The notes: generated by a model from the sequence alone, not told the origin. A stretch of 64,000 bases of DNA from Deltaproteobacteria bacterium (GCA_016703535.1 JADJBV010000001.1:6382270-6446269); one strand, 5' to 3'; shown: positions 32,671-35,096, numbered from the stretch's first letter. A program made the numbers and translations.

Positions 32671-33726
32671 CTAAAGCGGACAGGTCGTCCCGCACCGAGA
32701 GCAGCCGGCCGTCTGCTTTCCGTCTACACAGGTTCGGTGTTCTGCTCGCCACTGCACAGCGGCCTCATCGGCCGCCGTCTCGTCTAGATTGTGCAGGTCA
32801 ATAATGTGGGCAGCGACCCGGGCCGCGCGAACCGCCTCCAGCGTGGATTCGAGGCTCGGGATGCCTCCTGTATGCTCCTCGCGCGTCACGGCCGCAAGCA
32901 CGTGGGCTGCTCCGTGAACACCCATCAGAGTGGCGCCGATAGCGGCCGACACATGGTCCTGTCCGTCCGCCGCGTCGGTAGGAATGGGGCCCAAGGGCAT
33001 GACTGGGAAGCCAGCAGGAGCTAGGATCGAAGCCACTCTCAGGATGTCCCGCGGTCGAGCATGACCAGGTGACTCAACAATCACGCTTGTTCCGCTTCGC
33101 ACGAGCTGTGAAGCGAGGTCCAACTGGGCCGCGATCTCTCCTAGTTGCGCTTCATCCAGCGAGTCAAAGATGTTCGCCGAGCGAAAGGACGCCCCGAGGC
33201 TCAGCGTCACGCCCCGGCGAGCTGCCTCCTCTGCCAGCTTCGGCATGATGTCCTGGTAAGCGTTGCCTCCGTCTCCGCGAAGTAGGAGGTCGTTGATGAC
33301 CAATCCGCCCCCTCGGGAAGTCCACGGAACACGTCGCCGACGCGCTAGGCGAACCAGCTCACGAGTCGGGGTCGGATGAATCGTCAGGAGGCCGGCACCT
33401 CGTTCCATCTGCTCGATGGCTCTATTGAGTAAGGCAGAACGATCAATCTGGCCCGATGTCGAGACAGCGGAATACACGGGCAACGTCGCGGCGACAAAGC
33501 CATATGAAACTATGCACTCCAGGAGCGGTTCGTTCGACGCAACAATCGATAGATCGGATACGATATCGGGACCGACTTCCATCTGTGCAAGCGCGTCAAT
33601 TTTTGCTCGCTGGGATCCGAAGTCGCGAATGTGGCTAGAGCCGACCAGGGCCATCACTGACGTTCGAATCCCAGGACCTACCGCGACGCTCGGGAGCGCT
33701 CGCCGCCCTAGCAAGGCAACAGTCAT
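32671..33726 (-). CDS. Short ThiC-family (HMP-P synthase-like) radical enzyme paralog, 351 aa
   Basis: ThiC blocks: VPIYQA-like LPVYSA, TIHaG-like LLTIHPT, SRGG, ESPGH (VIVESPGHARP), LGPIPTDAADGQDHVSAAIGA. C-terminal CSRCGTTC (CX2CX3C). ATGA overlap with the ThsA-like stop at 33723-33726. Confidence 0.7.
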   Translation of the reverse strand: MTVALLGRRALPSVAVGPGIRTSVMALVGSSHIRDFGSQRAKIDALAQMEVGPDIVSDLSIVASNEPLLECIVSYGFVAATLPVYSAVSTSGQIDRSALLNRAIEQMERGAGLLTIHPTPTRELVRLARRRRVPWTSRGGGLVINDLLLRGDGGNAYQDIMPKLAEEAARRGVTLSLGASFRSANIFDSLDEAQLGEIAAQLDLASQLVRSGTSVIVESPGHARPRDILRVASILAPAGFPVMPLGPIPTDAADGQDHVSAAIGATLMGVHGAAHVLAAVTREEHTGGIPSLESTLEAVRAARVAAHIIDLHNLDETAADEAAVQWRAEHRTCVDGKQTAGCSRCGTTCPL

Positions 33727-35096
33727 TTGAGGCTCGCTTCCACGCACCGAACCACGTCGGCAGCGCTGACACGGCCACTTCTCGCCTTTTCTAAGTAGGC
33801 TGGATCGATTTTCTGGAGCAGCCCGGCTACGCCCGGCTCATCGAGTTGCAGCGCGGCCAGACCCTTGCGTTGGATTGGCACAGGAACGATTTGGCACCGA
33901 TGGGCGCGCGCAACCTCCAGTTCCGCGGCCGTGCCCATGCCTCCATCAAACACAACCATCGTCCTGGCGGCGGCAAAGAGGCCTCCACGGTATCGCTTGA
34001 GATCGTCGAGGAGTGACCTGTCGTTTGAAAATGCAGGCCTTATTGCATAAGGATTCGGAAAAATCCTAATGCGCTGACGCAGGTCGGTTTGTCTTCGAAG
34101 GCAAGCATCGCCGAAAGCGTTGACGGCATGGCGGCCAATACCCTCGGACTGGCCGTCCAGAAGCACAATCGCCGGATCGATTTCGGAGAGCTTTGCTCCC
34201 ACCAGTGCCGCAAGGTCAGTCGCACGACGAGCAGCCTTATGCCCACCACTTACGAACACGGCCCGGTCCCGAGCTCGGAGGGCTAGATTGTCGAATACGT
34301 GCTGGATTTCATCGTATCCTTGGACGATCGCACAACGAATTCCAACCCGCATGAGATCCTCGGTCCAGAGTGCCTGGCGCTTCGCGTCTTCAGCACTGCT
34401 GGCTACCTTAAGCAGCATAAAATGTTCGCGAGTCGCGCGTTTGGCCAACCTCCTTGCTTGAACCAGCGCGGTTGAGATGCTGGAATCCCGATAGCCATAG
34501 CCAGCAAACAGGAAAGTTTTGTGGAGCAAGTCGTGCTGGAGGCGCTGCACAAAACTGGGCCGACGAGCCGCAAATTCCTCATAGTCGTCGGTCGTGATGA
34601 TGAGGTCGTTGGGCGAGCTTCGCTCGATGCATCCATGCACCTTCAGTATTTCAAAGTCATCAGCGAGGACATCCTGCGTAAAGTCTTGATCGTCAATCCG
34701 CACGACAACCCTCCGGTGTGCCATCGAGTCCTCAAGAAGACGATCGAAATTTGTGGTCCAGACGGTATCAATCGGAGTGAGCCGCAGGGCGGCGTGGTAG
34801 GAGTTTGGAAGAAGTCCGCGATTTAGCTTCGCTCTAAATGCCGCGACCAGGGGACCACGATTGCCCTTGTCGGCATTTACCAAATGCTGTGCGATCAACG
34901 GTAAGTCGTCGGTCTCCTTCAGGTCCAACCCGATCCGCCTCGCGTGCGGCTTCAATAGACCAAGCCAACTTGGCGCATTCGACTTGGCGGATATCCCGGA
35001 TCCCAAAAAGTACGCGCCCACACCGGCCGCGATTGCCTGAGCCATCCCATCAACCACGTAGGAGAGATCGACTCCAACCGACTTTGGTTCAGCCAT
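33723..35096 (-). CDS. ThsA-like protein: N-terminal SIR2-like (SIR2_2) domain + C-terminal SLOG/LOG-like domain, 457 aa
   Basis: SIR2_2 motifs FLGSGISAKSNAPSWLGLL, TTNFDRLLE, ILKVHGCIER. C-terminus AVFVSGGHKA...VVFDGGMGTAAELEVA (LOG PGGxGTxxE-type motif). ATG 35094-35096 with GAGGGAG upstream. Confidence 0.7.
   Translation of the reverse strand: MAEPKSVGVDLSYVVDGMAQAIAAGVGAYFLGSGISAKSNAPSWLGLLKPHARRIGLDLKETDDLPLIAQHLVNADKGNRGPLVAAFRAKLNRGLLPNSYHAALRLTPIDTVWTTNFDRLLEDSMAHRRVVVRIDDQDFTQDVLADDFEILKVHGCIERSSPNDLIITTDDYEEFAARRPSFVQRLQHDLLHKTFLFAGYGYRDSSISTALVQARRLAKRATREHFMLLKVASSAEDAKRQALWTEDLMRVGIRCAIVQGYDEIQHVFDNLALRARDRAVFVSGGHKAARRATDLAALVGAKLSEIDPAIVLLDGQSEGIGRHAVNAFGDACLRRQTDLRQRIRIFPNPYAIRPAFSNDRSLLDDLKRYRGGLFAAARTMVVFDGGMGTAAELEVARAHRCQIVPVPIQRKGLAALQLDEPGVAGLLQKIDPAYLEKARSGRVSAADVVRCVEASLK

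What the first reader, a model, noticed from the sequence alone, without database searches (positions are those of the whole stretch)
32671..35096. ThsA-like SIR2-SLOG gene translationally coupled (ATGA overlap) to a truncated ThiC-family enzyme instead of a TIR signal generator
The stop of the SIR2-SLOG gene and the start of the ThiC-like gene overlap at 33723-33726, which implies co-translation and stoichiometric expression. In Thoeris the SLOG domain senses a TIR-made ADP-ribose-derived signal. Here the only tightly linked enzyme is a 351-aa ThiC paralog. It retains the ThiC core blocks (LPVYSA, LLTIHPT, SRGG, VIVESPGHARP, LGPIPTDAADGQDHVSAAIGA) but ends in CX2CX3C (CSRCGTTC) rather than the canonical CX2CX4C. 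It is also shorter than HMP-P synthases (about 430+ aa). ThiC/BzaF enzymes perform radical rearrangements of aminoimidazole ribotide. A paralog here could make a nucleotide-derived small-molecule ligand for the SLOG sensor or modify a nucleotide pool. This is a hypothesis, not an observation.
Basis: inference. Interest (0 to 1): 0.85.

Follow-up and report, generated by a model that had tools for sequence, protein, structure and literature searches.

The report
ThsA NADase paired with ThiC-like enzyme
A known phage-defence protein that destroys NAD (ThsA) is here partnered, in at least seven bacterial phyla and in every locus that could be checked, with a shortened relative of the thiamin enzyme ThiC instead of its usual TIR partner, which points to an undescribed two-gene module in which a radical-SAM enzyme may make or process the molecule that switches the NADase on.

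Summary
On the minus strand, a 457-aa SIR2-SLOG protein (33723-35096) overlaps by ATGA a 351-aa ThiC-family protein (32671-33726). The first is a full-length ThsA by sequence and fold, with the catalytic Asn/His intact.

The second has the ThiC fold and keeps the Fe-S cysteines, the two metal histidines and the SAM- and phosphate-binding residues. It lacks residues needed for HMP-P synthesis (Asn228, Asp383 and Tyr449 in AtThiC numbering; Cys474 in CcThiC numbering). It branches far outside ThiC/BzaA/BzaB.

The pair is a conserved cassette. ThsA lies directly upstream of the ThiC-like gene in 37 of 37 fetched loci that have upstream DNA, and in 7 more loci found by protein look-up. These span seven phyla, there is one fused ORF, and the two genes' divergences correlate (r = 0.91).

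Distribution is patchy, and neighbours are often restriction-modification, STAND, integrase or ICE genes. The window's copy sits in a low-GC, repeat-flanked 10.6-kb island. The genome has no TIR domain.

I found no paper or PADLOC model describing it. Best reading: a Thoeris-like defence module with a radical-SAM enzyme in place of TIR; the mechanism is inferred. CX2CX3C is not distinctive, and the DUF1848/MTase genes are not part of the cassette.

The parts
33723..35096 (-). ThsA-like SIR2-SLOG NADase gene (457 aa). The SIR2 domain is about residues 14-253 and the SLOG domain about 260-457.
   Evidence: PADLOC ThsA PDLC00407 5e-66; Pfam SIR2_2 1.4e-24. PDB sequence hits to SeThsA 7uxt (7e-43) and BcThsA 6lhx. 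AF2 model pLDDT 90.5, with full-length Foldseek matches to 7uxt/8bto/8wc0 at TM 0.65-0.71.
34635..34751 (-). Codons of the SIR2 catalytic residues Asn116 (34749-34751) and His154 (34635-34637), equivalent to BcThsA Asn112/His152.
   Evidence: Aligned to BcThsA N112/H152. Invariant in the ThiC-linked ThsAs compared. The role of these residues is from PMC7272460.
33726..34319 (-). SLOG domain. It keeps the core pocket residues Ser283, Gly284, Arg370 and Glu392, and has a clade-specific lining: His286, Gln316, Ser317, Asn348, Tyr350, Leu366.
   Evidence: Group-wise conservation against five TIR-linked ThsAs. The SLOG alone scores only 21 bits against solved ThsAs. Census positions are kept in carriers.
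33723..33726 (-). ATGA stop/start overlap of the two genes.
   Evidence: Read directly from the sequence. Homologous loci show an overlap or a gap of at most 11 nt in 31 loci where both ORFs are near full length.
32671..33726 (-). Short ThiC-like radical-SAM-type gene (351 aa).
   Evidence: Pfam ThiC_Rad_SAM 1.9e-44. NCBIfam ThiC 153 bits against a cut-off of 410, and BzaB 118 bits against 700. AF2 pLDDT 94.6; Foldseek best match AtThiC 4s27, TMq 0.88.
32680..32730 (-). C-terminal cysteine motif C333-x8-C342-x2-C345-x3-C349-P-L, with the protein ending there. The last three Cys align with the ThiC [4Fe-4S] ligands. Cys333 is an extra, clade-invariant Cys.
   Evidence: Census: Cys kept at all four positions in the carriers read.
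35107..35113 (-). Purine-rich Shine-Dalgarno-like GAGGGAG, 10 nt upstream of the thsA ATG.
   Evidence: Read from the sequence. It supports 35096 rather than 35132 as the start.
28889..29043 (.). Left copy of a ~155-nt direct repeat that brackets the island (context, not part of the cassette).
   Evidence: about 95% identical to 39543-39697, with no similarity outside the repeat.
39543..39697 (.). Right copy of the direct repeat. It lies in a 156-aa ORF (39273-39743, -) whose product matches the start of the Y2_Tnp (IS91-type) transposase family.
   Evidence: Y2_Tnp E = 1.1e-4, 22.7 bits against a cut-off of 20.9.
35217..37304 (-). Neighbouring candidate defence pair PDC-M19B (35217-36050) and PDC-M19A (36057-37304; contains DUF488). 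Context only.
   Evidence: PADLOC 1.1e-108 and 7.3e-100; Pfam DUF488 1.5e-27.
30134..32142 (+). Methyltransferase-like gene (30134-31222) and DUF1848 gene (31198-32142). These are island cargo and not part of the conserved cassette.
   Evidence: Pfam. DUF1848 matches the PADLOC model RTasDUF1848 at 3.2e-43. No flanking gene recurs across phyla.

Best explanation
This is a mobile two-gene, Thoeris-like defence cassette. The first gene encodes a ThsA-type effector whose SLOG domain senses a small phosphoribosyl-type ligand and whose SIR2 domain then depletes NAD+. The second gene encodes a short ThiC-fold radical-SAM enzyme that takes the place of the TIR protein ThsB. Using its C-terminal [4Fe-4S] cluster, the second metal site and SAM, it would start radical chemistry on a phosphorylated ribosyl substrate that is not aminoimidazole ribotide. 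Its product, or the loss of its substrate, would control the SLOG domain.

Shown here: the identity and intactness of both proteins, their obligate linkage, the absence of TIR, the accessory and mobile distribution, and the changed substrate pocket.

Inferred: the defence function, the radical-SAM activity, the direction of information flow (ThiC-like to SLOG), and the nature of the trigger.
For: 1. Effector. It is a full-length ThsA by sequence and fold. Asn116/His154 are invariant, and the SLOG core residues Ser/Thr283, Gly284, Arg370 and Glu392 are kept.

2. SLOG lining. It differs systematically from five TIR-linked ThsAs and is invariant within the clade: His286, Gln316-Ser317, Asn348 in place of BcThsA Phe357, and Tyr350. 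The SLOG scores only 21 bits against solved ThsAs. This suggests a different ligand.

3. Partner enzyme, residues kept in 46 of 46 relatives:
- the three cluster cysteines;
- both metal histidines (H222/H285);
- the SAM contacts (L59, R138, R182, E284);
- the phosphate site (Y85, H117, S137, R182).

4. Partner enzyme, residues lost: Asn228 to Leu, Asp383 to Ala, Tyr449 to Met (AtThiC numbering) and Cys474 to Ala (CcThiC numbering). AtThiC D383A yields a shunt metabolite and CcThiC C474S forms no HMP-P.

5. Linkage:
- ThsA lies directly upstream in 37 of 37 loci that have upstream DNA, and in 7 further loci.
- Census, ThiC-like as query, SIR2_2 within 1 kb: 6 of 6 in the 40-59% band, 0 of 3 in the 20-39% band, other bands under 5 tried, random places 0.
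- Reverse census: 6 of 9 in the 20-39% band, other bands under 5 tried, random 0.
- Divergence of the two genes correlates at r = 0.91, with 0 of 2000 permutations reaching that value.
- One fused SIR2-SLOG-ThiC ORF of 826 aa exists.

6. No TIR in the genome. TIR was found in only one other locus's surroundings.

7. Accessory and mobile character:
- Found in 0 of 60 relatives of this genome and in only 1 of the 12 genomes of another carrier's family (that one being the carrier itself).
- Empty sites in three same-family relatives of that carrier.
- Decayed copies exist.
- The window copy sits in a low-GC, repeat-flanked island beside PDC-M19.
- Neighbours elsewhere: type I and type ISP restriction-modification, a PLD-helicase, NACHT/STAND proteins, PIN-RHH, integrases, and a relaxase/ArdC element.
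Against: - No experiment of any kind exists. Neither defence, SAM cleavage nor ligand binding has been shown.
- The ThiC-like family has no PADLOC model and was not found on plasmid or phage records.
- The invariant fourth cysteine could fully ligate the cluster. That would favour a redox or structural role over radical-SAM chemistry.
- Radical-SAM enzymes of this family are slow and oxygen-sensitive, which is awkward for an alarm signal in aerobes such as Myxococcus or Azotobacter.
- In Bacillota the cassette always sits in one housekeeping locus beside a thymidylate synthase, and in two planctomycetes it sits beside thyA-folA. That could point to a metabolic link.
- How infection would be sensed is unknown.
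- One carrier (Azotobacter) has TIR genes 1.5 to 5 kb upstream.
Confidence: 0.5

Rival explanations
1. Same defence cassette, opposite wiring. The ThiC-like enzyme is a second effector or a downstream enzyme rather than the signal generator. It might convert a nucleotide into an antiviral analogue (viperin-like), or it might rearrange a product of the SIR2 reaction such as ADP-ribose. The SLOG domain would then sense something made by the phage or the host.
For: - The catalytic machinery is intact and the pocket is remodelled: small or hydrophobic Ala179, Met243 and Leu27, plus an invariant Arg344 in place of the adenine-stacking Met. This could fit a larger phosphoribosyl substrate.
- The tight coupling and the fusion fit a two-step pathway as well as they fit signalling.
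- Prokaryotic viperins are a precedent for radical-SAM antiviral effectors (own knowledge).
Against: - In every ThsA studied so far the SLOG is the sensor of a partner-made ligand.
- There is no other candidate sensor in the cassette.
- The SLOG lining is clade-specific and travels with the ThiC-like gene.
Confidence: 0.2
2. There is no diffusible signal. The ThiC-like protein is a protein-level sensor or guard, for example of SAM supply, Fe-S or redox state, or a phage protein. It would hold ThsA inactive by direct contact and release it on infection.
For: - ATGA coupling, co-divergence and a natural fusion fit a physical complex.
- The extra invariant Cys333 could make a four-Cys, non-catalytic cluster.
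- Phage SAM-degrading enzymes would be a plausible thing to guard against (own knowledge).
Against: - Complete conservation of the substrate phosphate site and of catalytic Glu218 in 46 of 46 relatives is hard to explain for a mere scaffold.
- The SLOG pocket residues are also conserved, which implies a small-molecule ligand.
Confidence: 0.12
3. It is a housekeeping or metabolic pair rather than defence: a salvage or modification pathway linked to thiamin, cobamide lower ligands, or pyrimidine/folate metabolism. The SIR2 domain would act as a phosphoribosyl or ADP-ribosyl transferase.
For: - Public annotations call the second gene ThiC.
- Thymidylate synthase (thyA-folA or thyX) lies directly next to the cassette in 9 Bacillota loci and 2 planctomycete loci.
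- One carrier (Subtercola) has no canonical ThiC match.
- Sirtuin CobB can substitute for CobT in cobamide synthesis (own knowledge).
Against: - Scores lie far below the ThiC and BzaB cut-offs, and a long branch separates the clade from both.
- Residues needed for HMP-P synthesis are lost.
- A true ThiC is present in this genome and in four of five other carriers checked.
- No thiamin or cobamide genes lie nearby.
- It occurs in about 12 of 36,145 genera, with absence from close relatives.
- The SIR2 is the defence-type SIR2_2/ThsA.
- In Bacillota the thy gene appears to have come in with the insertion that broke the resident thyX. That explains the linkage without a shared pathway.
Confidence: 0.1

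Closest known systems
Type I Thoeris (ThsA SIR2-SLOG + ThsB TIR)
   Same: - The effector has the same two-domain architecture, fold and catalytic Asn/His.
- It is a two-gene operon with the effector first, as in plasmid examples L066, L067 and L070.
- It has a defence-island setting.
   Different: - No TIR partner: none in the genome.
- The partner is a ThiC-fold Fe-S enzyme.
- The SLOG lining is replaced at positions that are constant in TIR-linked ThsAs.
- ThsA identity to plasmid Thoeris ThsAs is at most 31%, against 32-50% within the ThiC-linked clade.
ThiC (HMP-P synthase) and BzaA/BzaB/BzaF (5-hydroxybenzimidazole synthases)
   Same: - (beta/alpha)8 core, TM 0.88 to AtThiC.
- C-terminal CX2CX3C cluster motif, as in short-form ThiC and Bza proteins.
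- Two metal histidines, SAM contacts and a phosphate-binding site.
   Different: - About 80 residues shorter than short-form ThiC. It lacks the first ~49 profile positions, the ~27-residue helical linker before the cluster motif, and the helix after it.
- It has an extra invariant Cys.
- Asn228, Asp383 and Tyr449 (AtThiC numbering), Cys474-Tyr475 (CcThiC numbering) and a ThiC-invariant Trp are replaced.
- It scores below every curated cut-off.
- It forms a separate clade across a branch of about 4 changes per site.
Kongming (KomABC), a SIR2 NADase switched on by a non-TIR nucleotide signal
   Same: A defence SIR2 NADase controlled by a nucleotide-type signal that is not made by a TIR. The solved entries are titled KomC SIR2-domain NADase and KomBC in complex with dITP and NAD. 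The biology is from my own knowledge.
   Different: KomC is a stand-alone SIR2 of 264-278 aa without a SLOG domain, and no ThiC-like enzyme is involved. Similarity to P0001 is limited to the SIR2 domain (35-42 bits).
Prokaryotic viperins (pVips)
   Same: A radical-SAM enzyme acting on a nucleotide within antiviral defence (own knowledge).
   Different: Viperins have the canonical CX3CX2C radical-SAM fold, make chain terminators rather than signals, and are not paired with ThsA. No sequence relation was seen.

Membership tests
Type I Thoeris | ThsA effector with an N-terminal SIR2 NADase (catalytic Asn and His) and a C-terminal SLOG domain | tested here: met
   PADLOC ThsA 5e-66. Full-length structural match to SeThsA, BcThsA and EcThsA. 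Asn116/His154 are invariant.
Type I Thoeris | One or more adjacent TIR-domain ThsB genes that make the signal | tested here: not met
   No PF08937 or PF13676 match in the whole genome, which is 91% complete. No TIR-like ORF in the window or in 50 related loci by phmmer with 11 TIR queries, apart from L078.
Type I Thoeris | SLOG pocket that binds 3'cADPR (BcThsA Ser288, Phe357, Arg371, Glu403) | tested here: inconclusive
   The Ser, Arg and Glu equivalents are kept. Phe357 is replaced by an invariant Asn348, and neighbouring positions are also changed. Ligand binding cannot be tested with these tools.
Type I Thoeris | Protects against phage by NAD+ depletion | not testable with these tools
   This needs phage challenge and NAD+ measurement.
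ThiC (phosphomethylpyrimidine synthase) | Score above the curated equivalog cut-offs (NF009895 at 410, TIGR00190 at 460) | tested here: not met
   153.5 and 135.1 bits. Bona fide short ThiCs from other carriers score 668-687 bits.
ThiC (phosphomethylpyrimidine synthase) | AIR-binding and catalytic residues Asn228, Asp383, Tyr449 and Glu422 (AtThiC numbering) and Cys474 (CcThiC numbering) | tested here: not met
   The equivalents are Leu27, Ala179, Met243 and Ala278. Only Glu218 (the Glu422 equivalent) is kept. Residue roles are from PMC4389238 and PMC11117688.
ThiC (phosphomethylpyrimidine synthase) | ThiC fold with a C-terminal three-Cys [4Fe-4S] motif and a His/His second metal site | tested here: met
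   Foldseek match to AtThiC, TMq 0.88. Cys342/345/349 and His222/His285 are invariant.
BzaA/BzaB/BzaF (cobamide lower-ligand synthases) | Score above the TIGR04386 cut-off (700) or placement inside the Bza clade, with cobamide genes nearby | tested here: not met
   118 bits. A true BzaB (768 bits) and its tandem BzaA-like partner group with ThiC, far from this clade. No cobamide genes appear in any context examined.
Radical-SAM enzyme (functional class) | Reductive cleavage of SAM to the 5'-deoxyadenosyl radical | not testable with these tools
   The cluster, metal and SAM-contact residues are conserved, but activity needs anaerobic biochemistry. The extra Cys333 leaves the cluster ligation open.
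Known or candidate defence systems in PADLOC-DB 2.0.0 | A model that matches the ThiC-like partner | tested here: not met
   0 families for P0002 and for the distant-clade proteins.

The most novel reading that the evidence does not exclude
A ThiC-fold radical-SAM enzyme is a new kind of immune signal generator. On infection it converts a phosphoribosyl compound (not AIR) into a small molecule that binds a re-tuned SLOG pocket and triggers ThsA filament NADase activity. That would be the first Thoeris-type signalling that does not depend on TIR and the first second messenger made by radical chemistry. Related short ThiC-like enzymes, paired with or fused to other partners (a membrane protein in Bacteroidales; an unknown ~340-aa domain in ~700-aa fusions), would then be further branches of the same signalling family.
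Probability: 0.35. Interest if true: 0.92.

Novelty: new variant of a known kind. Interest (0 to 1): 0.8.

Why it matters
Thoeris is defined by TIR-made ADP-ribose signals. Here a clade of bona fide ThsA effectors has exchanged TIR for a ThiC-fold enzyme, in at least seven phyla. This would show that SLOG-SIR2 effectors can be wired to an entirely different chemistry.

It gives enzymologists a third, unassigned branch of the ThiC/Bza family, with an intact radical machinery and a new substrate pocket. It also gives a directly testable system of two genes (one fused natural variant exists) for discovering a new nucleotide-derived metabolite.

On the practical side, these genes are currently annotated as 'phosphomethylpyrimidine synthase ThiC', which is almost certainly wrong. 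Defence-system finders also miss the cassette or would call it an incomplete Thoeris.

Tried and rejected
- Complex prediction on ThsA + ThiC-like, both given as alignments: 'no answer', score 0.00. This is no evidence either way.
- The look-up of sequencing runs: no RNA holder listed, and DNA holders hold only small shares.
- Plasmid and phage collections hold no member of the ThsA-linked ThiC-like clade. All hits are at most 31% identical and are ordinary thiC.
- Promoter/terminator scan: nothing above the shuffle expectation.
- No tRNA in the window to serve as an integration site.
- CX2CX3C as a distinguishing motif: rejected.
- DUF1848 and methyltransferase as system components: rejected, because no flanking gene recurs across phyla.
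- A 2'-deoxy substrate, suggested by Asn to Leu27 and by the thymidylate-synthase neighbours: not supported. That Asn binds the 3'-OH, and the Glu that binds the 2'-OH is kept.
- Bacteroidales membrane partner as a SLOG-like sensor: no profile match to ThsA (probability 0.3), no PDB, Pfam or PADLOC hit, and uninformative Atlas hits.
- Its contexts are mixed (restriction enzymes and transposases, but also glycosyltransferase and aminotransferase genes). I therefore do not count it as evidence for effector swapping.
- C-terminal domain of the ~700-aa ThiC-like fusions: only a weak Atlas lead to nucleotidyltransferases, and no PDB hit.
- Literature: ThiC+SLOG, ThiC+Thoeris, 'ThiC-like'+defense and 'radical SAM'+SLOG+SIR2 each returned no paper. 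'Phosphomethylpyrimidine synthase'+SIR2 returned one unrelated genome paper. The systematic TIR-system preprint does not mention the pairing.
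Full report
**Observation**

Both genes lie on the minus strand. The ORF from 35096 (ATG, preceded by GAGGGAG 10 nt upstream) to 33723 encodes 457 aa. The ORF from 33726 to 32671 encodes 351 aa. The two share the tetranucleotide ATGA at 33723-33726.

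**The first protein is a true ThsA**

- It matches the PADLOC ThsA model over residues 14-417 (5e-66) and Pfam SIR2_2.
- Its best solved relatives are SeThsA, BcThsA and EcThsA.
- An AlphaFold model built on 26 relatives (pLDDT 90.5) superposes on those structures over both domains, at TM 0.65-0.71.
- Asn116 and His154 align with BcThsA Asn112/His152, which are needed for NAD+ cleavage (PMC7272460). They are invariant in the clade.

**The second protein has the ThiC fold but is not ThiC or Bza**

- Pfam ThiC_Rad_SAM matches at 1.9e-44, but only over profile positions 50-369.
- The model (pLDDT 94.6) matches AtThiC at TM 0.88.
- NCBIfam scores are 153 bits for ThiC (cut-off 410) and 118 bits for BzaB (cut-off 700).
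- The genome has a normal ThiC on its other contig, scoring 629 bits.
- In a maximum-likelihood tree, five bona fide ThiCs plus a BzaA-like/BzaB pair group together. The BzaB was confirmed at 768 bits. The short ThiC-like proteins sit across a branch of about 4 changes per site, and the ThsA-linked set forms a clade with 99% support.

I mapped the residues described for AtThiC and CcThiC (PMC4389238; PMC11117688) onto an alignment of 46 relatives.

Kept in all 46:
- the three cluster cysteines;
- the two metal histidines;
- Glu284, Leu59, Arg138 and Arg182 (SAM contacts);
- Tyr85, His117 and Ser137 (phosphate site);
- Glu218 (2'-OH contact).

Replaced, and fixed as replaced in at least 41 of the 46:
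- Asn228 to Leu (the 3'-OH contact);
- Asp383 to Ala (the imidazole N3 contact; AtThiC D383A gives a shunt product);
- Tyr449 to Met;
- CcThiC Cys474 to Ala (the H-atom relay; C474S still makes 5'-dA but no HMP-P), and the following Tyr to Ala;
- an invariant Trp to Asp;
- the adenine-stacking Met572 to an invariant Arg.

So the radical-initiating apparatus and the phosphate anchor are kept, while everything specific to aminoimidazole ribotide and to pyrimidine formation is gone.

The motif CX2CX3C is not unusual. Every short-form ThiC and the two Bza-type proteins I fetched have it. The unusual features are:
- an extra invariant Cys eight residues upstream (C-x8-C-x2-C-x3-C-P-L);
- loss of the helical linker before the motif;
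- termination right after the motif.

**The pair is a conserved cassette**

- A word-based search found more than 120 proteins of about 350 aa at 52-65% identity.
- A scan of one genome per species returned 47 loci. Of the 39 loci with a ThiC-like protein at 39% identity or more, 37 have a ThsA homologue immediately upstream. The other two start at a contig edge.
- In 31 loci where both ORFs are near full length, the order is thsA then thiC-like on one strand, with an overlap or a gap of at most 11 nt.
- Seven further loci found by exact-protein look-up show the same arrangement: Bradyrhizobium, Paenibacillus, Tissierella, Myxococcus, Methylicorpusculum, Azotobacter and a MAG.
- Carriers belong to Planctomycetota, Myxococcota, Actinomycetota, Pseudomonadota, Bacillota, Acidobacteriota and Bacteroidota.

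Census of one genome per genus, ThiC-like protein as query:
- about 12 carriers in 36,145 genera;
- SIR2_2 within 1 kb in 6 of 6 carriers of the 40-59% band and 0 of 3 of the 20-39% band;
- other bands under 5 tried; 0 at random places.

Reverse census, ThsA as query:
- about 12 carriers;
- ThiC family within 1 kb in 6 of 9 carriers of the 20-39% band;
- other bands under 5 tried; 0 at random places.

Further points on linkage:
- Pairwise identities of the two proteins across 28 loci correlate at r = 0.91, and 0 of 2000 permutations reach that value. They therefore travel as a unit.
- One genome (Tissierella) encodes them as a single 826-aa SIR2-SLOG-ThiC protein. This is a single instance and could be a sequencing artefact.
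- No third gene is shared across phyla. The DUF1848 and methyltransferase genes of the window are therefore not part of the cassette.

**No TIR**

Neither TIR family matches anywhere in this 91%-complete genome. A phmmer screen with 11 TIR proteins found none in the window or in the related loci, apart from Azotobacter. There, TIR genes lie 1.5 to 5 kb upstream in what looks like a defence island.

**The SLOG domain looks ligand-competent but re-tuned**

I compared the ThiC-linked ThsAs with five plasmid ThsAs that have annotated TIR neighbours.
- Both groups keep Ser/Thr283-Gly284, Arg370 and Glu392, which correspond to BcThsA Ser288, Arg371 and Glu403.
- The ThiC-linked clade has invariant His286, Gln316-Ser317, Asn348 (where BcThsA has Phe357), Tyr350 and Leu366. 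The TIR-linked proteins have other constant residues at those positions.
- The SLOG alone scores only 21 bits against solved ThsAs, whereas the SIR2 half aligns well.

**Accessory, mobile, and in defence-type surroundings**

In the window:
- GC drops from 0.66-0.70 to 0.56-0.62 between about 30,000 and 38,500.
- That segment is bracketed by ~155-nt direct repeats at 28889-29043 and 39543-39697. The right copy lies in a fragment of an IS91-type (Y2) transposase gene.
- The island also carries the PADLOC candidate pair PDC-M19A/B directly upstream of thsA, and a DUF1848 gene that matches a DRT-associated PADLOC model.

Neighbours elsewhere:
- type I and type ISP restriction-modification systems;
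- a PLD-helicase;
- NACHT/STAND NTPases;
- a PIN-RHH pair;
- several integrases;
- a relaxase/ArdC/ParA element with an ORC/Cdc6-like gene.

Patchiness and decay:
- The ThiC-like gene was not found in 60 relatives of this genome.
- It was found in only 1 of the 12 genomes of the family of Desulforamulus putei, that one being D. putei itself.
- Several copies are frameshifted, interrupted by a stop, or split by a 1.5-kb insertion.

**The thymidylate-synthase neighbour**

In nine Bacillota loci the cassette sits at one spot of a housekeeping array (cysS-mrnC-[..]-rlmB-yacP-sigH). It is always preceded by thyA-folA or by a thyX.
- Three same-family relatives have the empty arrangement mrnC-thyX-rlmB. 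Their flanking genes are 75-93% identical to the carrier's, but their thyX is only about 31% identical to the carrier's thyX.
- Three carriers retain a truncated thyX downstream of the cassette.

The simplest reading is that a block [thy gene(s)-thsA-thiC-like] replaced or disrupted the resident thyX and brought its own replacement.

However, two planctomycetes also have thyA-folA next to the cassette, in different orientations. A functional tie to pyrimidine or folate metabolism therefore cannot be excluded.

**Other short ThiC-like proteins**

An exhaustive search of 1.84 billion representatives gives only 56 clusters at E <= 1e-30, so this is a small family.
- A sister group in Bacteroidales (32-34% identity) keeps the four cysteines, Arg344 and Met243, and also keeps Asn228. 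In 6 of 7 loci it is followed, with overlap, by a ~380-430-aa protein that has C-terminal transmembrane helices and no recognisable family. Its surroundings are mixed, so its role is open.
- Some representatives of ~700 aa carry an unidentified C-terminal domain.

**Mechanism**

The evidence fits best a Thoeris-like arrangement in which the ThiC-like enzyme stands where ThsB stands. It would act on a phosphorylated ribosyl compound other than AIR, and the matching, clade-specific SLOG pocket would read the result and release the SIR2 NADase.

This is inference. The rivals are listed separately: enzyme downstream of or parallel to the NADase; a protein-level guard without a diffusible signal; a metabolic pair.

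**Literature and databases**

- No paper in the library combines ThiC with SLOG or with Thoeris, 'ThiC-like' with defense, or 'radical SAM' with SLOG and SIR2. 'Phosphomethylpyrimidine synthase' with SIR2 returned one unrelated genome paper.
- Recent surveys that extend Thoeris to types III-XI are TIR-centred and do not mention this pairing.
- PADLOC has no model for the partner.
- Public records name it 'phosphomethylpyrimidine synthase ThiC'.

Noticed in passing
window 28889-29043 and 39543-39697: Direct repeats of ~155 nt (about 95% identical) bracket a 10.6-kb low-GC segment that carries the cassette, PDC-M19A/B and the MTase/DUF1848 genes. The right copy lies in a 156-aa ORF matching the start of an IS91-type Y2 transposase. 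The left copy lies inside a 300-aa ORF (28735-29637, -) with no Pfam hit.
   Followed up: partly
window 35217-37304 (-): Two genes directly upstream of thsA match the PADLOC candidate system PDC-M19 (B: 1e-108; A: 7e-100, contains DUF488). This is a separate, uncharacterised candidate defence pair in the same island.
   Followed up: no
window 30134-32142 (+): A methyltransferase-like gene overlaps a DUF1848 gene. The DUF1848 protein matches the PADLOC model RTasDUF1848 (DRT-associated) at 3e-43, yet no reverse transcriptase was seen next to it.
   Followed up: no
L015, L016, L017, L020, L024, L029, L034, L037, L072 (Bacillota); L011, L030 (Planctomycetota): A thymidylate synthase (thyA-folA or thyX) lies directly beside the cassette. 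In Bacillota the block appears to have replaced or broken the resident thyX, with empty sites in relatives L073-L075. In the two planctomycetes the orientation differs, so an independent or functional association remains possible.
   Followed up: partly
L072:6001-8481: A single 826-aa ORF in Tissierella sp. fuses SIR2, SLOG and ThiC-like domains. Only one such sequence was found, so a frameshift artefact is not excluded.
   Followed up: partly
L047:5965-8234, L048:5959-8204, L052:5914-8126, L053:5998-8129, L080:3946-6296, L082:3869-6407: In Bacteroidales, a sister clade of short ThiC-like genes is translationally coupled to a downstream ~380-470-aa protein of no known family with 2-3 C-terminal transmembrane helices. 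That partner family has 62 clusters, some with over 1000 member sequences in gut metagenomes.
   Followed up: partly
proteins P0227, P0231, P0233, P0246-P0248, P0260: These are ThiC-like proteins of ~690-726 aa with an unidentified ~340-aa C-terminal domain. It is unrelated to ThsA or to the Bacteroidales partner, with only a weak Atlas lead to nucleotidyltransferases.
   Followed up: partly
L078:2557-6088: The Azotobacter beijerinckii locus has two TIR-type genes and an integrase 1.5-5 kb upstream of the ThsA/ThiC-like pair. It is the only locus in which TIR was seen near the cassette.
   Followed up: no
G005 (genome of L012, Subtercola lobariae): The only ThiC-family match in this genome is the short ThiC-like gene; no canonical ThiC was found with PF01964.
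   Followed up: no
L060:1471-4098: Desulfotruncus arcticus carries a tandem BzaA-like/BzaB pair (BzaB 768 bits) in addition to ThiC, while its ThsA/ThiC-like cassette (L037) is decayed (a stop in the ThiC-like gene and a split ThsA).
   Followed up: no
window 26668-28059 (-): A 463-aa protein combines an HD domain with an AAA_33 kinase-like domain just outside the left repeat. Its function was not examined.
   Followed up: no
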